64,000 nt of DNA from Octopus vulgaris. Lineage: Eukaryota. The notes beneath the pieces are model-generated. The model did not search any database. It was not told the DNA's origin and was given only the letters and a program-made list of their open reading frames with translations. The stretch lies in NCBI GenBank assembly GCA_951406725.2, contig OX597819.1, forward strand, positions 57,598,001 to 57,662,000, read 5' to 3'. Position 1 is the first letter of the stretch; each line of letters opens with the position of its first letter. Positions 7,144 to 50,851 of this stretch are shown piece after piece. The translations under genes and the position numbers were made by a program.

Positions 7144-10100
7144 ATGTCAACAAAACAAACTACAAACCGCGATGGTCGTCGAGCGGATTACAAAAGACCA
7201 CGCACCCGAAAATTGAACCAAAGTCTGAGTGAAAAATCAGCTACTGGATCAAATCTTCCCGACACACAGGAGCTGGACGTACCCCACAACTGGAATATTC
7301 CAACAGATGGCCATCCATGCTCGTCACCAAACACTCAAAAGAAAAAGAAGGAAAAACGGACTAGGGAAGATAATAAAGAAGTTCTTGCGGCCTTCTACCA
7401 TGCCATATATTTCCCCACAGATAAATCGAACACTATACAAACCTACATAAACTGGAGACAGAAACACCCTGAAGCAAGACCTTACATAGACAGTAACAAA
7501 CTTGCCAACGTCAGAAGAAACATTATAAAAAAAATTACTGACTGAAGTAGAGATTGACCAAATTAGACAAGCAGTAACGGATAGAATGAACGAAGCTGCA
7601 GCTAAAGAAGATAATACAGAGGAAATAATTATAGACCAGCCCAGAGCTGATAAAAACGAAGTTAGGATTGAAAGAGTTAGTATAAGTGATAGGCAAAGTG
7701 AAATACTCCCAGAACCAAACATAAACACTAAGACAGATGAACATCAAATAGATGAAGAAAGCCACACAAATATTGACCCGACAGAACTACATGAGCTACA
7801 AAGTCAAATCATGATTGAATGGCTGAAAATTAAAGAAACCAGTATGGATGAACGTGATACACTCCCTAAAATCCACAACTCTAAACAAAACATGAAAATA
7901 ATTGGTAAAATCCGGCTTGCACTTAAGGATATAGTTTCAGCTAATGATGTTGATATCACAGATCTCAACCACCTATACTATGCATCCGCGAAAATCTCAA
8001 CGATCCTATGTGGTGTAAAGATTAGAAAACGACAACATTTCCACAAAAAGCCTTCTTGGCAAGAGCGTTTGCAACAACAAATTAAAATATTTAGATCTGA
8101 CATTGAATATTTGAAAAATCTTAAGGTTCATATGACTACCAAACCTACAAAAACCCAAAAACTAATGAAAAAATATAATATGAAAACTATACTTGATATT
8201 GATGCCACCATAGAAACCATCAAGCAAAAGGTATCTGCTAAAGCTGCCCGCATAGCGAGGTATGAAAAGCGTGTTAGATTCTTCAGGGACAACAACATGT
8301 TCAAAAATAACCCCAAAAATTTTTACAGGAAGATAGGAAAAACACCAGTTACTGTAAAGTCTGTACCATCAAAAGAAGAAGTGCAGGGATTTTGGAATAA
8401 AATTTGGGCAGAAGAAAAAACACACAGCGAAAAGGCCCCCTGGATTGATAGAATATCTAAAGAACTGGACTCCTTAGAAGAGCAAAAGTGGGGGGGGTGT
8501 CAAGGTAGAAGATATAAGATCTGCTCTCAGGAGATCAAGCAAATGGAAGTCTCCAGGAAAGGATAAAATCCCTAACTTCTGGTAGAATGCCTTCCCAGAG
8601 AGCCATGAACTGCTAACAGAACTTTACAATGATGTTTTGCAACACCCTCCTTGGCTAGTTAATGGGTTAACATTCCTGCTTCCAAAAAGTGAAGAAACAA
8701 ATGAACCAAAAAACTATAGACCCATAACCTGCTTAACAACTATGTACAAAACACTAACATCTGTCCTGACGGAATATACTTATAGTTTTTTGACGGACAG
8801 AAAGGATGTAAACGTGGATCCTACGGTTGTAAAGATCAACTACTCATCAATAAGATGATCTCAGAAGATTGTCACAAACGACACAAAACTTATCAATAGC
8901 CTGGATAGACTATAAAAAGGCTTTTGATAGCCTACCACATAGCTGGATTAAGAAATGCCTAGAAATGTATAAGATAGCACCTACTCTGCGAAACTTTTTA
9001 TCTGTAAGTATGAGATCATGGAGAACCACACTAACTTTGAATAGTGACAATGAATTTCTAAATGCTGGTGATGTAAAAATTTAATGTGGCATTTTCCAGG
9101 GTGAATCACTATCACCACTCCTCTTCTGTTTAACCTTAATACCTCTCTCAAAACTGCTGAATGACGCGCAGTACGGATATAAAATGTTTGATAAAGATAT
9201 AAATCATCTCATTTACATGGATGATTTAAAGCTCTTTGCAAAAAATGACCAACAACTCAAGGACTTACTAGCGATTGTCAAACAATTCAGTGATGACACC
9301 AGAATGCAATTTGGCCTCGATAAATGTGCAAAAGCTACCTTTATCAAAGGAAAAATGACAGAAACATCTAACGTCAACCTTGACCAGCAGAATGTCTTAA
9401 AAGAATTAGACCCAGCGAAGAACTACAAGTATCTAGGGGTAATTGAAGGAAACGGCATAAGGCATTCAGAGATGAAGGAAAGGATCAGGAGGGAATGTTA
9501 TCGCAGAGTAAAAGCAATACTGAAGACAGAGCTGAATGCGAGAAAGAGGATCGAAGCGATCAATGCATTAGCCATGCCAGTCGTGACTTACAGTTTCAAT
9601 ATCGTTAACTGGTCAATTACTGAAATATGTAATCTTAACAGAAAAATATGAAAACTGTTGACAATGCATAGAATGCACCACCCTAAGGCAAATACAGAAC
9701 GACTTTATCTGCCAAGAAACGAGGGAGGCCGTGGACTTTTACAACTGGCAATAACAATGAAGATTGCTACAATTGGCCTAGACACCTACCTGAAGATCTC
9801 TGAGGACTGGATGTTAAAACTTGTCTCAAAACATGAAAACAAGAAAGCATCATGCTCAGTAACAAAACAGGCAAAGGAATATCTAAATGAATTCCGAATA
9901 CTACAAATTTCGGAATTAGAAATAGACATACAAGAAACAGGCACAGAAAAAGCTAAGCGCATGAAAACCCGTGCTAAATCTGCGGCCTTAGATATTCTGA
10001 ATGATAAATGGCAAGAAAAACCTCTCTATGGCAAATACCCAAAGAGAGCGAATAATGCAGATGCTGACAAAGCCCTGACCTATCAATGGCTAATGGCCTC

Positions 10101-11121: not shown

Positions 11122-11875
11122 ATTTCTTTACTACCCACGAGCGGCTAAACACAGAGAGGACAAACAAGGACAGACAAACAGCTTAAGTCGATTATATCGA
11201 CCCCAGTGCGTAACTGGTACTTATTTAATCGACCCCGAAAGGATGAAAGGCGAAGTCGACCTCGGCGGAATTTGAACTCAGAACGTAACGGCAGACGAAA
11301 TACCGCTAAGCATTTCGCCAGGCGTGCTAACGTTTCTGCCAGCCCGCCGCCTTTCCAAATGGATTAAGTCGATTACATCGACCCTAGTGCGTAACTGGTA
11401 CTTTATTTATCGACTCCCGAAAGGAGGAAAGGCAAAGTCGACCTCGGCGGAATTTGAACTCAGAACGTAGCGGCAGACGAAATACCTATTTCTTTGCTAC
11501 CCACACAGAGAGGACAAACAAGAACAGACAAACGGATTAAGTCGATTATATCGACCCCAGTGTGTAACTGTTACTTATTTAATCGACCCCGAAAGGATGA
11601 AAGCAAAGTCAATCTCGGCGGAATTTGAACTCAGAACGTAACGGCAGACGAAATACCTATTTTTTGCTACCCACAAGGGCTAAACACAGAGAGGACAAAC
11701 AAGAACAGAAAAACAGATTAAGTCGATTATATCGACCCCTGTCGTAACAGGTACTTAATTAATCGATCGAAAGGATGAAAGGCAAAATCACCTCTGCGGA
11801 ATTTGAACTCAGAACGTAACGGCAGACGAAATACCGCTAGGTATTTCGCCCGGTGTGCTAACGATTCTGACAGCC
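11122..11875 (-). repeat. Tandem array of ~4 Meta/MESC SINE-derived units (~180 bp)
   Basis: Repeating unit acccacaaggggctaaacacagagagg...gaactcagaacgtaacggcagacgaaatacc. Further copies at 13672-13900, 17150-17395 and 24570-24795. Confidence 0.85.
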
Positions 11876-19856: not shown

Positions 19857-19962
19857 CTTCCAATCAGTTAAGATCAGAAGCCACGAGAGCCACTGCCTAG
19901 TACTGCATCAGGGCATTTACCTGGTACTGCATCAGGGCATCTGCCTGGTACTGCATCAGGGC

Positions 19963-20063
<101 letters not shown>

Positions 20064-23190: not shown

Positions 23191-23470
23191 TATACATATA
23201 CAATGGTTGAAAAAACATACATCAGTATTGAGCAAGCAACTTTATATCATCCCCATATATACACACCGTTGAACATAAATAAATATTAAAATGCCAGGAC
23301 ATTCAGCACACAAAGCAATGGCGTAGGAATATACATATTTACATAGATATAAAACAAAACGTGTGAAAACCTGTAAAGATCGATGCGTTTGAAAGCGTAT
23401 GAAGAAAATCCATGGAGAAAATACATGAAACAAAATAGAAGATATTCAGAACCTTTTCGGTTTGAACGGT

Positions 23471-24075
23471 ACGTTCTGAGTTCAAATTCTGCCGAGGTCG
23501 ACTTAGCCCTTCATCTTTTCGGAGTCGATTAAATAAGTACCAGTTACGCACGGGGGTCGATATAATCGACTTAATCCGTTTGTCTGTCCTTGTTTGTCCT
23601 CTCTGTGTTTAGCCCCTTGTGGGTAGTAAAGAAATAGGTATTTCATCTGTCGCTACGTTCTGAGTTCAAATTCTGCCGAGGTCGACTTAGCCTTTCATCT
23701 TTTCGGAGTCGATTAAATAAGTACCAGTTACGCACTGGTGTCGATATAATCGACTTAATCCGTTTGTCTGTCCTTGTTTGTCCCCTCTATGTTTAGCCCC
23801 TTGTGGCTAGTAAAGAAATAGGTATTTCGTCTGTTGCTACGTTCTGAGTTCAAATTCTGCCGAGGTCGATTTGCCCTTCATCATTTCGGAGTCGATTAAA
23901 TAAATACCAGTTACGCACTGGGATCGATATAATCGACTTAATCCGTTTGTCTGTCCTTGTTTGTCTTCTCTGTGTTTAGCCCCTTGTGGGTAGTAAAGAA
24001 ATAGGTATTTCGTCTGCCGTTACGTTCTGAGTTCAAATTTTGCTGCGGTCGACTTTACCCTTCATCTTTTCGGAG
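23471..24075 (+). repeat. Tandem array of ~3.3 Meta/MESC SINE-derived units
   Basis: ~182-bp units joined at AAAGAAATA|GGTATTTC. Confidence 0.85.
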
Positions 24076-25162
24076 TCGACAAATTAAGCCCACTTGGGGC
24101 TCAATTTCTGATTGTTTTTGTCGTAAACTCAAATGTTTTTGATAGTGTTTTTTTTTGTTACTTGCACACACACACACACATATATATAGATATTTCTTTG
24201 AGTTGTTTATTTGCCAGCGGCCATGTTGGAGCACCACCTTGGAGAGGTCTTTAGTCGAACGAGTCGACCCCCAGATAATATCATTTTTAAGCCTACGACT
24301 TATTCTATCGGTCTCTTTTTGTCGAACCGTTATTTTACAAGGACATAAACACACCAACATCGGTTGTCATACGGTGATGGGACAAACGCAAAGACACACC
24401 TCTCTCTCTCTCTCTTATATACATTATGCCACCGGCTTCTTTGTTTCCGCTTGCTAAACCCGCTCACAAGGCCTTTTAGTCGGCCTACAGCTATAGTTGG
24501 AGACACTTGCCCAAAGTACCACGCAGTGAGACTGAACCCGGAAGCATGTGGTTGGGAAGCTAGCTTATTTGTTTATTGCCCACAAGGGGCTAAACATAGA
24601 ATGGACAAACCAGGACAGACAAACGGATTAAGTCGATTACATTGACCCAGTGTGTAACTGGTACTTAAATTATCGACCCCGACAGGATGAAAGGCAAAGT
24701 AAACCTCGGCGGAATTTGAACTCAGAACATTAGCGGCAAGCGAAATACCGCTAAGCATATCGCCCGGCGTGCTACCGTTTCAGCCAGCTCGTTGCCTTAC
24801 CACACAGCCATTGATTTCAAACTTTGGCAGAAGGTCAGTTTCGGAGAAGGCACCAAGTTGATTACATCGAGCCTGAATATTCTACTGGTACTCATTGTGT
24901 TGACCTGGGCGGAATTTGATTTCAGAACGTAAAGACGGACGAAATACCGCTAAACATTTTCCTGGTGTGATAACAATTCTGACACCTCGTCACCTTGAAT
25001 ACTTACTTGTATAATAATCAGTCCCTTTGTAAGCGAAGTCCAGATTCTCTTCATCGTTAATAATACAAGATAAAATGATGTTGGTAGCGTTCGTTCTTCG
25101 TGGATTTTTTTCCGTGTGTGTGTAATGGCCGTAGCCTAAAGATTGAAACAAAATATTAAATA

Positions 25163-30835: not shown

Positions 30836-32296
30836 ATTGACAAGTGCATTCAACGTGCCCTTCAACTTAACATCAAGGAACTGAGACATCCCAAATCAAA
30901 GAAAAACTTACAACCAAAAGCCTTACCATACATCTCCACACACAACCCTCTCCATAACGAAGCCTTCGGCACAACATACCTCCACAACATACCCCTCCTA
31001 AAAAAAGACCACAGAATGAACACAATCCTCCAAACACACACGATCATAAAAAGCAAAAGACAGCCTAGATCCATGAAAAGTCTCCTAACACAAGCCCGAA
31101 TTCACTCTTCAACACAGAAGCCGACAGTAAAAAAATGTGTAAGACCCAATTGTGGGATATGCGACTATCTAATTGAGGGATCAGAGTTCTCCTTCAAACA
31201 GGGACAACGGTTTACAGTGAAAAGCAACTTCACATGCGCTTCGGAGAACCTAATATACTCACTAACCTGCTCCGAGTGTCAAAAGCAGTACATAGGCCAA
31301 ACAAAAAATGGTTGCGTAAACGAATGGCCCTGCACAGATCCCAGATAAAAATTCCCCAAAACAGAAAAATAGCTTTTAGCCAACACATAGATACTTGCGC
31401 CAACAAAAAAACACCAAACTTCAGGATTTTCCCCCTCTACCAATTTAGGGACGATACAACCTCGAGACAACGAACAAGTGAAGAAAATCTCTTTATTACA
31501 AAATACAAGCCACTTCTTACCGGGTCTACGACAAACAATCAATATACCTCAACTTTAGAATAAAAGAAATATATACACACACAAATATTACACTCCATAG
31601 AATCCATTACTAATCAGCCCCAATCACAGCTATACTTTCACCCATTCATATTCTCCCTTCTCTGTTTTTTTCTTCTTCTTCTTCCTCTTCTTCTTCATCA
31701 TCATCATTATCATCATCATCGTCGTCATCATCATCACCACCATCATCACCATCATCTTCTTCTTCTTCTTCTTCTTCTTCTTCTTCTTCTTCTTCTTCTT
31801 CTTCTTCTTCTTCTTCTTCATCATCATCATCATCATCAACATCGTCAACTTCTTCTTCTTCTTCTACTTCTCCACCTTCCACCCCTTAACCTTGTCACTA
31901 ATGTCTTTCAGTATAACGCCTACGCAAATTCCATAAACAATTCCTGAATTGAACTGCGACTGCTGTCAGCCACTGACCATTCAAAATACGACCATCAAGG
32001 CATTCCCAGATTTCCCCACCCCCTCTCCACATCAGCCTCCTTATTCTTCACCTACCCTACCAAGAACTCACAACGACCTCGAACACACAAGTGCAAACAA
32101 GGGAGTCAGAGAAAAGCAGAATGCTACTTATATCTGAAAACTACTATAGAAATATTCTTTTAAAAAAACTTTTCTTCTAATTTTTCTAAATTTAATTATT
32201 AAATCGTTACAGTTGAAAAGGTCCCAAAATGACCGAAACCGGTACTGAAAGATTCACTATAAAATTATCTTAGCATTTTCTATTTTTGACTTGTTT

Positions 32297-35300: not shown

Positions 35301-37156
35301 TTTGCAAAAAAACACAGTCACTGGTTCTACTGTTGGCCCTCTGATTGATGAAAATGGTACTCTTCAAAACAATGCCAAAATCATGGGAGAGATATTGCAG
35401 AAACAATATTGCTCTGTTTTCAGCAATCCTGATATGACTGATCTGGGCTGTATCAGTGATGTTACTCCCCAATAGACTTTATCGGACATAACATTTGGCG
35501 CTCCTGATATCTTAGCAGCAATAAAGGAAATGAAGCATAATTCAGCAGTAGGTCCCGATAGGTTCCCTGCTTGTGTCTTGAAGATGTGTCAACACCAACT
35601 TGCACCCCGTCTAGCCAATCTGTGGCGGAACTCACTGGATGCTGGATATATACCAGAAGACCTTCTATCCCAGTCTGTTGTCCCAGTTTTCAAAAAAGGA
35701 AACAAATCGCTTGCCGTGAATTACCGCCCAGTCTCACTCACCTCTCATATCATTAAGGTATTTGAGAGAGTGCTGAGATCGCGTATGACTCACTTCCTTG
35801 AGAGTCATAATATGCTGAACTCCAGCCAGCATGGATTCCGTAATGGAAGAGATTGCCTGACGCAGCTACTGCATCATTTTGATGACATTTTGAGAGCCTT
35901 GGGAGAGGGTTCCAACACTGATGTCATCTACCTTGATTTCAGCAAGACCTTTGACAAGGTTGATCATAAGATCCTTTTGAGAAAGCTGTGCAATACTGGT
36001 GTCACTGGAAAGTTGCTGCAGGGGATCAAGTGTTTCCTGTCTAACAGAACCCAACATGTTGTAGTCGAAGGAGTCAAATCCAGCCCAGCCAAAGTCAGCA
36101 GTGGTGTCCCACAAGGCACTGTGTTGGGCCCACTTCTCTTCATCATCTACATTAATCATATTACTGACACCATCAAACACAGTAACATCAGAACCTTCGC
36201 TGATGATTCCAAGATCCAGAAGATCATCAATGGCGTGGATGATCGAATAAGCCTTCCGTCAGACCTACTGGCTGTTGTCCAATGGGCGGAAAAGAACAAC
36301 ATGTTGCTAAACGAAGACAAATTCGAACTGATCCACTTTGGAAGGGAGGACGCTCTGAAACTCCCATACTCCCTTCCTTCTGGAGAAATTCTCATGGCGT
36401 CTAACAACATCAGAGACTTGGGAGTAACAGTGGAAAACAACATAAGCTGGGCTACACGTATAAGCAGCAAAGTTGACATGGCCCGCAGAATGTGTTCCTG
36501 GATTCTCAGAACCTTCCAGTCGAGAGATTCCCACACCATTATCCTTCTCTTCTCCACTTTTGCCCGATCCCACCTTGAATACTGCTGTCCACTGTGGTCT
36601 CCCTACACAAAACAAAATATTATGAGAATTGAAGCTCCCCAAAGGTCAATCACGAAAAAGATAGATGGCATGTCAAACCTTGACTACTGGGGTAGACTAG
36701 AGAAACTGAAACTGTATTCACTCCAACGACGCCGTGAACGCTACATGATCTGTATGATGTGGAAAATATTCCATCAGCACTGTCCAAATGATGTTGACAT
36801 CACCTTCAAATTACATCCAAGGCTTGGACCACGTTCCATCCGTCCACAACAAAAATCTAAATCGCATCACATAACGACAATACGGCACAATTATTTCACC
36901 TCAGTTGGACCCGCTCTCTTCAACCAGGACACGTCAAAACAGACCACACAAAATTCAAGAAGTCTTTGGACAAATTCCTTCAAACAGTCCCGGACAAACC
37001 ATCCACACCCGGATATGTCTCCGCAAACAATAACTCTCTGCTCGAATGGGCCTCGGTGCCCAAATCCTGAATTGAAAGACTTCGCCAGGTGGTGCTATTA
37101 AGTTAGACATGGCCTGAGCCAATACTGGCCAAAACCTTTCTAAGTTATTCTAAGTT
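32359..37156 (+). mobile_element. Near full-length CR1-like LINE (5'UTR, ORF1, APE-RT ORF2), inactivated
   Basis: APE motifs [31 protein letters not shown]; RT motifs NYRPVSLTS, YLDFSK, SGVPQGTVLGPLLF, FADD; short tandem tail (TTCTAAGTTA)2; embedded in (TA)n. Confidence 0.9.
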
Positions 37157-40969: not shown

Positions 40970-41575
40970 AAATGCCCTGATGCAGTACCAGGCAGATGCC
41001 CTGATGCAGTACCAGGTAAATGCCCTGATGTAGTACCAGGCAGTGGCTCTCATGGCTTCTGATCTTAACTGATTGGAAGTGTTATCATGTACATTGTTTT
41101 GTCTAGGTATAAAAGATGGGCTACAGCAAATATTCTGCTCAATACCACAGATTTGCTTGTCAGTTGTTTGACTTTAACCAGTTGAGCATGTCCCTTAGTG
41201 GCTGACGATATGTGCATCTCTGATCACGAGCAGAAGTAGTGGGGGAGCATCATAGCCATGTGTTGAGAGGGATTCTTTGGGGTTTGAATAATTCACCTCT
41301 GGAAACATGGGTGGTTCTTTCAACATCCTTAAACAACCCTTATTCGGGGACCTTTTGAGCGGGATGGGCAACTCAACCTGAAGAAAATTCTAACTGGGCC
41401 ACACCTGCAAGGTCATGTGCTGTTTATCTTGATATGAGATCACCATGTCGCGCACATATGGTTGTGATGCATGTTCCTGGTGTACCCTTATCAGACGGGT
41501 AGTCATGATGGGTATATTGGGCTTCGTATATTTTACCCCAGTGTCACTTTGATGGCATGAACTGCTCTCTCACTC
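40970..41575 (+). mobile_element. Full-length ~600-bp (AAT)n-associated non-coding element
   Basis: Four copies in the window; three 24-bp repeats at the 5' end; 3' end CTCTCTCACTC(AAT)n. Confidence 0.8.
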
Positions 41576-43070: not shown

Positions 43071-43736
43071 TGTGTGTGTCTTATTCGCTATTTATGACCG
43101 AAAAACACAAGCATAGAGTCACTGAGGTAGCTGATGGTGTTAGTCATATATATATATATATATATATACAAACATACATACATACATACATACATACATA
43201 CATACAAACATACATACTTTCATACATACATACATACATTCATACATACATGCATACTTGCATACACGCATATATATATACATATATATATATACATACA
43301 TATATATACACGCATATATATATACATACATACATTCAGACATTCATACATACATACATACATACATACATACATACATACATACATACATACATACATA
43401 CATACATACATACATACATAATGTACTGCTCCACTAAATTCTGGAATCAACAAGAAAACCTTCAATGATACCATGGACTCAGAGATAGATAGCATTTAAT
43501 ATGCACAGTATTTAAATACGCGTTGAGATTAGGACGAATACCCTTATATGCATGCAGAATTTTGAGGTTGAATGATTGATTGAAAACACGGGATACGCTA
43601 TACAAGATTACCTAATCACAACTTCTTCAGCGGCATCAAACCAATGATAACATAAATTTAAATCCTTTTGATATTAGATGATGTATATACATATGTGTGT
43701 ACATATATGTTTATATATCCATATAAATACATATAA

Positions 43737-47073
<3,337 letters not shown>

Positions 47074-49939: not shown

Positions 49940-49984
<45 letters not shown>

Positions 49985-50091
49985 TTAGGGAATATTATTC
50001 CAAACATACAGGGAAAAGTCAATTTAGAAATACTAAATCAAATTTCATAAAATGTAATATAGGTATATGCAAATTAGAAAATATATATATA

Positions 50092-50164
50092 TCTTACTGA
50101 AGAGCCTGCCTGAGTAAATAAATATTATTTTTATTGCTGAAAGGGGCGAAACTGCAGTCTAAGA
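50092..50164 (+). ncRNA. Type-I hammerhead ribozyme, copy 1 (predicted cleavage after C50159)
   Basis: UCUUA-CUGAAGA-GCC(38 nt)GGC-GAAA-CUGCAG-UC-UAAGA. Confidence 0.85.
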
Positions 50165-50491
50165 AGAACCGAGTTAGTAAAAGTTTTTATTTTCATTTCA
50201 CTAAATTTATCAAGCTTCTGTGTATCTAGTACATACTTCGCCTTTAATGTACTTATATATGAATAATATATGGCCTGTGCTAGAAACACCAGCGATAATA
50301 ATTAATTTTATTTTATCGCATTCTGTCTTTGTTTACATATTTCTCGATAAAGTTTGAGCGTTAGACTATATACCAGAAATCCCTAGTTTGTCGGGTACGT
50401 TCTGCGTCTGCGCAGTGATCTGATTAGTTAGAAAGAGCAAATCAGTAGACGCACATGTGTCTATCGAGGTGCGATCTCGAAATAACAGGAA

Positions 50492-50564
50492 TCTTACTGA
50501 AGAGCCTGCCTGAGTAAATAAATATTATTTTTATTGCTGAAAGGGGCGAAACTGCAGTCTAAGA
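50492..50564 (+). ncRNA. Type-I hammerhead ribozyme, copy 2 (predicted cleavage after C50559)
   Basis: Identical to copy 1, offset by exactly 400 nt. Confidence 0.85.
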
Positions 50565-50730
50565 AGAACCGAGTTAGTAAAAGTTTTTATTTTCATTTCA
50601 CTAAATTTATCAAGCTTCTGTGTATCTAGTACATACTTCGCCTTTAATGTACTTATATATGAATAATATATGGCCTGTGCTAGAAACACCAGAGATAATA
50701 ATAAATTTTATTTTATCGCCTTCTGTCTTT

Positions 50731-50781
<51 letters not shown>

Positions 50782-50851
50782 AAATTCAATTTAGAATAAC
50801 TAAAACAAATTTCACAAAATGTGATATATGTATATATAAATTAGAAAATAT

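What the first reader, a model, noticed from the sequence alone, without database searches (positions are those of the whole stretch)
50091..50735. Tandem hammerheads exactly 400 nt apart: candidate retrozyme circular RNA
Seen: two identical canonical HHRs (UCUUA/UAAGA stem I, CUGAAGA...GAAA core, palindromic CUGCAG stem III, GUC site) head two 245-bp direct repeats. The 155-bp spacer has its own hairpins (tgcgtct/agacgca at 50403-50453, tcgag/ctcga at 50464-50480). There is no ORF and the unit sits in (TA)n. Known: minimal HHRs with palindromic stem III cleave as dimers, and metazoan non-LTR retrozymes are HHR-delimited tandem units that yield circRNAs and are thought to be mobilised by PLEs. 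Inference: double cleavage would release a 400-nt monomer (50160-50559) able to circularise. Near-identity of the repeats suggests a young family that may be undescribed in this taxon.
Basis: partly seen in the sequence, partly recalled or inferred. Interest (0 to 1): 0.85.

Follow-up and report, generated by a model that had tools for sequence, protein, structure and literature searches.

The report
Hammerhead retrozyme family copied in circles
This is one of well over a hundred genomic copies of a 400-base non-coding repeat that carries a hammerhead ribozyme motif and sits in TA microsatellites; the copies share one fixed end and run on round the unit, as would be expected if a borrowed retrotransposon enzyme likely copied a small RNA circle into the genome.

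Summary
Observation confirmed: two type I hammerhead (HHR) motifs 400 nt apart head 245-bp repeats inside (TA)n. It is no artefact: exact motifs occur 115, 159 and 116 times genome-wide, in subfamilies 84-99% alike, with invariant core bases and compensatory stem changes. It is a new member of the animal non-LTR retrozymes / non-autonomous Penelope-like elements (PLEs). New evidence on mechanism: copies end at one internal site, TTTGTTTA|(TA)n, 176 nt past the cleavage site; 5' ends vary and continue circularly permuted; 58 of 64 copies reaching the cleavage site pass it; the stop rate triples after one unit; repeats within a copy share variants. Most likely a (TA)n-targeting PLE reverse-transcribes the circle from that site (0.5); linear tandem RNA is the main rival (0.37). 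Corrections: this copy is a 5'-truncated 1.6-mer, and repeat identity dates the insertion, not the family. Cleavage, circles and the partner PLE are not shown. The scan noted a similar TA-inserted permuted unit, without a ribozyme, in another genome (e1-7810660).

The parts
50091..50735 (+). whole insertion, 1.61 units of a 400-bp unit (unit 1-400 + 1-245), 5'-truncated at the first hammerhead
50092..50164 (+). hammerhead motif 1 (type I; 5-bp stem I only, distal arm missing); predicted cleavage 50159/50160
50151..50158 (+). palindrome ACTGCAGT forming helix III; unstable as a hairpin (+2.9 kcal/mol), stable as an intermolecular duplex (-11.1)
50160..50559 (+). predicted 400-nt cleavage-to-cleavage monomer (35% GC), the putative circle
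   Evidence: inference
50292..50319 (+). GCGAT...ATCGC hairpin just upstream of the priming site, kept in the family consensus fold (no covariation)
50328..50340 (+). internal copy of the family's 3'-end site TTTGTTTACATAT (unit 238-250), unpaired in the consensus fold; inferred priming site with microhomology to (TA)n
50336..50490 (+). 155-bp spacer (unit 246-400); continuous with the next unit in all longer copies; possible promoter region (untested)
50484..50574 (+). hammerhead motif 2 with distal stem I arm (AACAGG); predicted cleavage 50559/50560
50728..50777 (+). 3' junction TTTGTTTA|(TA)n, the fixed end of the family, running into the target microsatellite
50080..50091 (.). short (TA)n at the 5' junction

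Best explanation
This is one insertion of a dispersed, non-coding 400-bp hammerhead repeat family that is likely mobilised by the reverse transcriptase and endonuclease of a TA-targeting Penelope-like retrotransposon, most likely from a circular RNA template. Steps: (1) shown: tandem units with a conserved, covarying HHR motif; (2) inferred from known retrozymes: a multi-unit transcript self-cleaves, probably with paired helix III palindromes, and a host ligase closes the 400-nt monomer; (3) inferred from the copies: the PLE endonuclease nicks (TA)n, the nicked end pairs with the internal UUUACAUAU site 176 nt past the ligation point, and the RT copies round the circle, across the junction, for 22 nt to several rounds; (4) shown: the result is copies with one fixed 3' end, variable permuted 5' ends and TA on both sides. 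The window copy is a 1.6-round product.
For: Fixed 3' end: 95 of 101 element chains end at unit 238-256; 29 of 30 loci of sister subfamily D are family members, and their held 3' ends lie at the same site. The end is not the cleavage site (unit 69/70). In a 3'-anchored sample (98 of 116 termini held) lengths run from 22 to 1127 nt; 58 of the 64 that reach 160 nt pass the cleavage site and 32 of 98 exceed one unit; only 2 copies genome-wide match TA joined directly to the cleavage site; 83 of 84 distinct flank-anchored HHRs parse without an indel at the junction. Stop rate 0.24 per 100 nt at 100-400 nt against 0.71 at 400-700 nt (ratio 2.9, p 3e-5; already 0.67 at 400-576), as expected when the RT meets its own cDNA. 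One unit is copied twice: in 57 multi-pass copies 490 variants are shared by both passes against 107 in one pass, 21 locus-private variants are shared by both passes in 16 copies, and only 5 of 98 between-pass differences recur in phase; in D 0 of 20 recur. HHR under selection: G5, A6, A9, G12-A14, U16.1 invariant in 83 of 83, N7 free, H17 only C or A, stem I pair 2 T-A 70 / C-G 13. Candidate helpers exist: two abundant GIY-YIG PLE families with long open frames whose examined copies end in (TA)n; the 781-aa family is itself a partial tandem ending at an internal TTTACAAATAT site. Inverted 5' copies occur (L074, L209). The circle-template model was proposed in PMC4209133 and PMC7229834.
Against: No cleavage, ligation or circle was observed. 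5' ends are enriched just downstream of the cleavage site: 7 of 22 D copies stop at unit 70-84 on the second pass, and the first-pass stop rate at 160-178 nt is about twice the later rate (6 events), which fits linear RNAs with a cleaved 5' end. The rise in stop rate after 400 nt could also come from later recombination between the repeats; the 400-nt break was looked at after seeing binned data. No PLE with homologous pLTR was found; 3'-end likeness to the 781-aa family is weak (10, 24 and 363 of 5000 shuffles). The G10.1-C11.1 pair is lost in subfamilies C and D (56 of 83 paired) and U4 is C in 16 of 83, so cleavage may be slow. The circle is not unusually structured (z -0.7 to -1.7; covariation term -1.6). 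In the 2026 preprint only 1 of 9 predicted Xenopus dimers cleaved in vitro.
Confidence: 0.5

Rival explanations
1. Same family and same PLE helper, but the template is linear: partly cleaved multi-unit transcripts (5' end at one cleavage site, the next HHR uncut), or a linear monomer copied with precise template jumps. Circles, if they form, are a by-product or an occasional source of longer arrays.
For: 7 of 22 D copies and 6 of the 14 A copies that reach 540 nt stop within about 35 nt of the second arrival at the cleavage site; only 9 of 98 exceed 576 nt; weak helix III and lost 10.1-11.1 pair would leave many HHRs uncut; long donor arrays exist (up to about 28 units on C5).
Against: Needs a separate homogenising step: private variants are shared by both repeats and between-unit differences are almost never inherited in phase; the stop rate rises at 400 nt, before the 576-nt ceiling; jumps would be expected to leave a first-pass pile-up or junction indels, which are rare.
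Confidence: 0.37
2. Each insertion was at most one unit long; tandem copies arose afterwards by local DNA duplication or unequal crossover, and the HHR is a passenger from a PLE ancestor.
For: The 2026 preprint suggests local amplification of PLE termini; the 11-kb array on C5 could have grown this way.
Against: Copies are dispersed, keep one exact 3' end and show a continuum of partial permuted lengths flanked by TA; stems covary and the core is invariant across subfamilies.
Confidence: 0.08
3. The repeats are 5'-truncated pLTR remnants of an autonomous PLE.
For: PLE pLTRs in this genome carry palindromic-helix-III HHRs and end in (TA)n. 18 of 116 A-type termini and most D loci were not examined.
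Against: Upstream of the HHR the copies continue into the same 400-bp unit, for up to 6.6 units in held loci, never into an ORF; PLE fragments near copies are set off by TA runs or lie on the other strand.
Confidence: 0.04
4. Local duplication or assembly artefact.
For: None beyond the low-complexity surroundings.
Against: Hundreds of motif hits on many contigs; both HHRs here share two private variants and the repeats differ at three sites.
Confidence: 0.01

Closest known systems
Animal non-LTR retrozymes (Cervera and de la Pena 2020, PMC7229834; mussel 350-390 bp, axolotl 330/350 bp)
   Same: Type I HHR in each unit of a short, low-GC, non-coding tandem repeat; short palindromic helix III as in amphibian HHRs; PLEs in the same genome.
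   Different: Unit 396-404 bp, at the top of the reported range; copies are mostly partial (0.05-1.7 units) with one fixed internal 3' end in (TA)n, a feature I did not find in the sections read; predicted circle not highly self-paired; no RNA evidence here.
Retrozymes as non-autonomous PLE derivatives (Li, Clavereau and Pollet 2026, bioRxiv 10.64898/2026.07.22.740005)
   Same: Two consecutive complete HHR units; PLE co-occurrence.
   Different: There 24 of 57 Xenopus families match known TEs, nearly all PLE termini; here no homologous pLTR was found. Their survey covered vertebrates, three insects and a coral, and starts from Tandem Repeats Finder, which did not report this 1.6-unit copy (other parameters).
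EN+ PLEs that target (TA)n: Neptune, Nematis, Hydra, Naiad (Craig et al. 2021, PMC8557442); non-autonomous Chlamys elements such as MRC1
   Same: 5' truncation, partial tandems, inverted 5' copies, microsatellite targets, HHR near the 3' end.
   Different: No RT or endonuclease; MRC1-type elements resemble their autonomous partners at the 3' end, whereas here the likeness is weak.
PLE HHRs (Cervera and de la Pena 2014, PMC4209133)
   Same: Palindromic helix III suited to dimer cleavage; circle-templated more-than-unit copying proposed there.
   Different: This motif keeps a 4-nt loop III and a long helix II hairpin, so it is not the minimal type.

Membership tests
non-LTR retrozyme | type I HHR in each unit of a 150-450-bp tandem repeat | tested here: met
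   units 395-404 bp
non-LTR retrozyme | non-coding, GC below 45-50%, no LTR architecture | tested here: met
   35% GC; no ORF; repeats are permuted units, not terminal repeats. PBS/PPT not searched separately.
non-LTR retrozyme | dispersed multi-copy mobile family | tested here: met
non-LTR retrozyme | at least two consecutive complete HHRs with folding energy below -5 kcal/mol (2026 preprint's working rule) | tested here: met
   100-nt windows fold at -14.9 and -17.6; HHR2 constrained to the active fold -11.7
non-LTR retrozyme | self-cleavage in vitro | not testable with these tools
   only core conservation and covariation
non-LTR retrozyme | expressed as linear and circular monomers | tested here: inconclusive
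   no listed holder on record as RNA; contigs of two RNA-guess runs cannot show strand, ends or circles; two raw RNA runs of another organism gave no reads
non-LTR retrozyme | highly self-paired circle (descriptive trait) | tested here: inconclusive
   59-66% paired, z -0.7 to -1.7 in four monomers
Rfam Hammerhead_1 (RF00163) | score at or above the gathering threshold of 34 bits | tested here: not met
   28 bits, E 8.4e-4, full model length; the long helix II is an insertion against the model (inference)
autonomous EN+ PLE | RT plus GIY-YIG ORF | tested here: not met
non-autonomous PLE | PLE insertion anatomy: fixed 3' end, 5' truncation, partial tandems, inverted 5' copies, (TA)n target | tested here: met
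non-autonomous PLE | sequence homology to the pLTR or 3' end of an autonomous partner | tested here: inconclusive
   no significant match in 54 PLE-query loci; weak 3'-end likeness; only the best 150 of 6136 and of 15121 candidates were scored

The most novel reading that the evidence does not exclude
The family is a genomic record of rolling-circle, target-primed reverse transcription of a ribozyme-made circRNA: a telomerase-related PLE enzyme primes by pairing nicked (TA)n DNA with a fixed, unpaired internal template site on a circle that has no 3' end, reads through the ligated hammerhead junction, and falls off three times faster once it meets its own cDNA. It names the priming site and predicts the product lengths for the long-proposed but undemonstrated retrozyme and pLTR mechanism.
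Probability: 0.45. Interest if true: 0.72.

Novelty: new member of a known kind. Interest (0 to 1): 0.5.

Why it matters
The class is known, but how retrozymes return to the genome, and how PLEs make their partial tandems, is still a hypothesis in the papers read (PMC4209133, PMC7229834, 2026 preprint). This family supplies a small substrate, a defined priming site 176 nt from the scissile bond, a defined target, two candidate helper PLE families with long open frames and a length distribution to test against. If the circle model holds, it shows a retroelement enzyme priming inside an RNA by base-pairing with target DNA, and suggests a minimal 400-nt cargo for TA-targeted insertion.

Tried and rejected
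RNA evidence: no RNA holder listed. Laying four runs: X21 and X22 (raw poly(A) reads of another organism label) gave 0 reads, no test; X1 and X2 (contigs, RNA only by guess) cover the whole unit with variants of several subfamilies and show the 400-nt go-back joint, but that joint also exists in genomic arrays and contigs show no ends or strand, so this is not used as evidence; no silent control stretch could be laid. Partner search: GIY-YIG family search, 12 longer PLE loci, a second PLE family and six Rfam HHR hits gave no pLTR homologous to the unit; an 18-nt match to unit 240-257 lies antisense inside the PLE ORF (E 0.18) and was rejected as chance. The control set for 3'-end likeness was contaminated with family ends, so only the shuffle control is quoted. 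One search's variant counts were inflated by alignment into TA flanks and were replaced; its length table (HHR-anchored) was replaced by the 3'-anchored one. The 71-bp repeats on both flanks (50014-84, 50781-851, 87%) were considered as a target-site duplication and rejected: too diverged and part of another dispersed repeat. Rfam miRNA hits are TA-repeat noise. Earlier-findings search by sequence found nothing. Literature searches for a description in cephalopods and for internal priming on circles found none in this open-access library; Repbase, Dfam, subscription papers and all supplements (including file S1 of PMC8557442 and the preprint's tables) were not seen and may list the family.

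Full report
Observation. Two identical type I hammerhead motifs begin at 50092 and 50492; each has stem I TCTTA/TAAGA, core CTGAAGA, a long AU-rich helix II, GAAA, the palindrome ACTGCAGT and a GUC site. They head 245-bp repeats 400 nt apart that differ at three positions. Rfam Hammerhead_1 matches both at 28 bits, under its threshold of 34. The element holds no ORF and lies between TA runs. Unit position 1 below is window 50091; the predicted cleavage site is unit 69/70.

Family. The window is G000:C6:57598001-57662000. A search with one unit gave 111 matches from the 40 best of 704 candidates. Exact motifs give 115 hits (HHR 3' half, control 0), 159 hits (variant HHR of a sister subfamily, control 1) and 116 hits (3' junction of A-type copies, control 0). 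The first 100 places fall in about 51 loci, one an array of about 28 units; 29 of the 30 loci fetched there are family members, 22 distinct. Units are 395-404 bp; subfamily D is 84% identical to the window. So well over 150 dispersed insertions exist.

The ribozyme motif is under selection. Among 84 distinct HHR regions picked by their flanks, 83 parsed (allowing three substitutions per half). G5, A6, A9, G12, A13, A14, the helix III C-G pair and U16.1 are invariant; N7 takes all four bases; H17 is C (74) or A (9), never G; stem I pair 2 is T-A in 70 and C-G in 13; stem II pairs 2-4 switch between C-G and T-A (partly a one-base register shift in C and D). Against: pair 10.1-11.1 is intact in only 56 of 83 and U4 is C in 16. 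Helix III is unstable as a hairpin (+2.9 kcal/mol) and stable as a duplex of two palindromes (-11.1), which fits the dimer cleavage described for such motifs in PMC4209133 (parts 1-2 of 4 read). The rest of the unit shows little covariation (-1.6 kcal/mol, 6 of 84 pairs) and circular monomers fold only slightly better than shuffles.

Insertion anatomy. Of 101 element chains in the first 120 loci, 95 end at unit 238-256, at TTTGTTTA followed by (TA)n. Junctions vary by a few bases and sometimes keep the subfamily's own internal letters (ACATAT, ACGTAT), as expected from priming by microhomology. 5' ends are scattered, mostly joined to TA, and upstream of the HHR the sequence continues as unit 400, 399 and so on, for up to 6.6 units. 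The window copy is a 1.61-unit member whose 5' end falls by truncation at HHR1, removing the distal stem I arm. Inverted 5' pieces occur (L074, L209). This is the anatomy given for PLEs in PMC8557442 (passages and section 11 read).

What the template was. The fixed end is 176 nt past the cleavage site, so a cleaved linear monomer cannot simply be primed at its 3' end. In the 3'-anchored sample (98 of 116 termini) 64 copies reach 160 nt, 6 stop at 160-178 and 58 pass the cleavage site; 32 exceed 400 nt and 9 exceed 576. Only two places in the genome match TA joined straight to the cleavage site for the A/B pattern. The stop rate is 0.24 per 100 nt at 100-400 and 0.71 at 400-700 (ratio 2.9, p 3e-5; 2.4-3.9 at matched unit positions); the break is the unit length but was examined after seeing binned data, and later recombination between repeats could mimic it. 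In 57 copies with overlapping passes, 490 variants are shared by both passes and 107 lie in one; 21 private variants are shared by both passes in 16 copies, two of them in the window copy; 5 of 98 between-pass differences recur in phase in a second copy. In D the figures are 58, 20, 4 and 0 of 20. One unit is therefore copied more than once, at or near the time of insertion. Against a pure circle model, 7 of 22 D copies stop at unit 70-84 on the second pass, and A copies show a weaker excess near the same site; linear RNAs with a cleaved 5' end probably also serve.

Helper. The genome holds abundant GIY-YIG PLEs. One family has ORF1 plus a 781-aa RT/EN ORF with a CX4CXXC linker (Neptune or Nematis type by the description in PMC8557442; no tree built), direct pLTRs in four of six copies, (TA)n flanks and an end at an internal TTTACAAATAT site; related copies carry a U3-A8 HHR variant of the kind reported in PMC4209133. 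A second family has at least 150 identical endonuclease stretches, and all 12 copies examined run into (TA)n about 1.1 kb downstream. Neither shows clear homology to the unit; 3'-end likeness to the first is weak. The partner is unidentified.

Expression. Not established (see Tried and rejected).

Comparison. PMC7229834 (passages, sections 14 and 17 read) defines non-LTR retrozymes, shows circles in coral, mussel and axolotl, and proposes target-primed copying of circles by PLEs. The 2026 preprint (parts 1-3 of 5 read) links them to PLE pLTRs in Xenopus and found cleavage in 1 of 9 tested dimers. This family meets every sequence-level criterion tested; cleavage and circles are untested. Other papers were seen only as search listings.

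Verdict. A real, ordinary-class element: a new non-LTR retrozyme / non-autonomous PLE-type family. Its value lies in the copy population, which places the priming site inside the unit and favours, without proving, rolling-circle copying of a circRNA (0.5 against 0.37 for linear templates). Interest 0.5.

Noticed in passing
window 49984-50084 and 50781-50851: The element sits between two fragments of another dispersed repeat (40 of 123 candidates scored, 85-93% alike) whose copies often have inverted arms, like a MITE.
   Followed up: partly
window 30839-31518 (+): Broken PLE fragment, 64% identical to the linker/endonuclease region of the 781-aa family.
   Followed up: partly
window 9085-9651, 35476-37101, 43678-46217: LINE-type RT and endonuclease remnants (Pfam RVT_1, Exo_endo_phos_2).
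   Followed up: no
window 11148-11835 and 23470-24079: Tandem arrays (3.9 and 3.3 copies) of a related 181-184-bp unit on opposite strands; recalled as an octopus SINE; may be another tandem-forming non-autonomous element.
   Followed up: no
window 19896-19967 and 40972-41043: The same 24-bp unit in three copies, next to (AAT)n/(AAG)n runs, on opposite strands.
   Followed up: no
G000:C5:112643750-112654457: About 28 head-to-tail 396-bp units of subfamily D, about 11 kb; one very long copying event or later local amplification.
   Followed up: no
L151-L156 (e.g. G000:C16:20834000-20843000): Young PLE family with ORF1 overlapping a 781-aa RT/GIY-YIG ORF, 99-100% identical pLTRs, tandem CCAAT/TGACGTC-like repeats in the 3' region and a TTGATAA-core hammerhead-like motif.
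   Followed up: partly
L273-L284: Very young, GC-richer PLE family (at least 150 identical endonuclease stretches) ending CTTCCCGT|(TA)n, with a possible minimal hammerhead about 110 nt from the end.
   Followed up: partly
L285:1501-1547 (-) (G000:C5:6546758-6546804): Solitary compact hammerhead, 45.5 bits, no repeat or PLE nearby; possibly a host-gene ribozyme.
   Followed up: no
run X2, loose end at window 50644: Two contigs leave the unit near position 154 and run into (ATC)n; possibly a copy with another end and target.
   Followed up: no
window 50693, 50703, 50720: All three differences between the repeats lie in the last 45 nt of the 3' repeat, next to the inferred start of reverse transcription; initiation errors, later mutation or sequencing error.
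   Followed up: no
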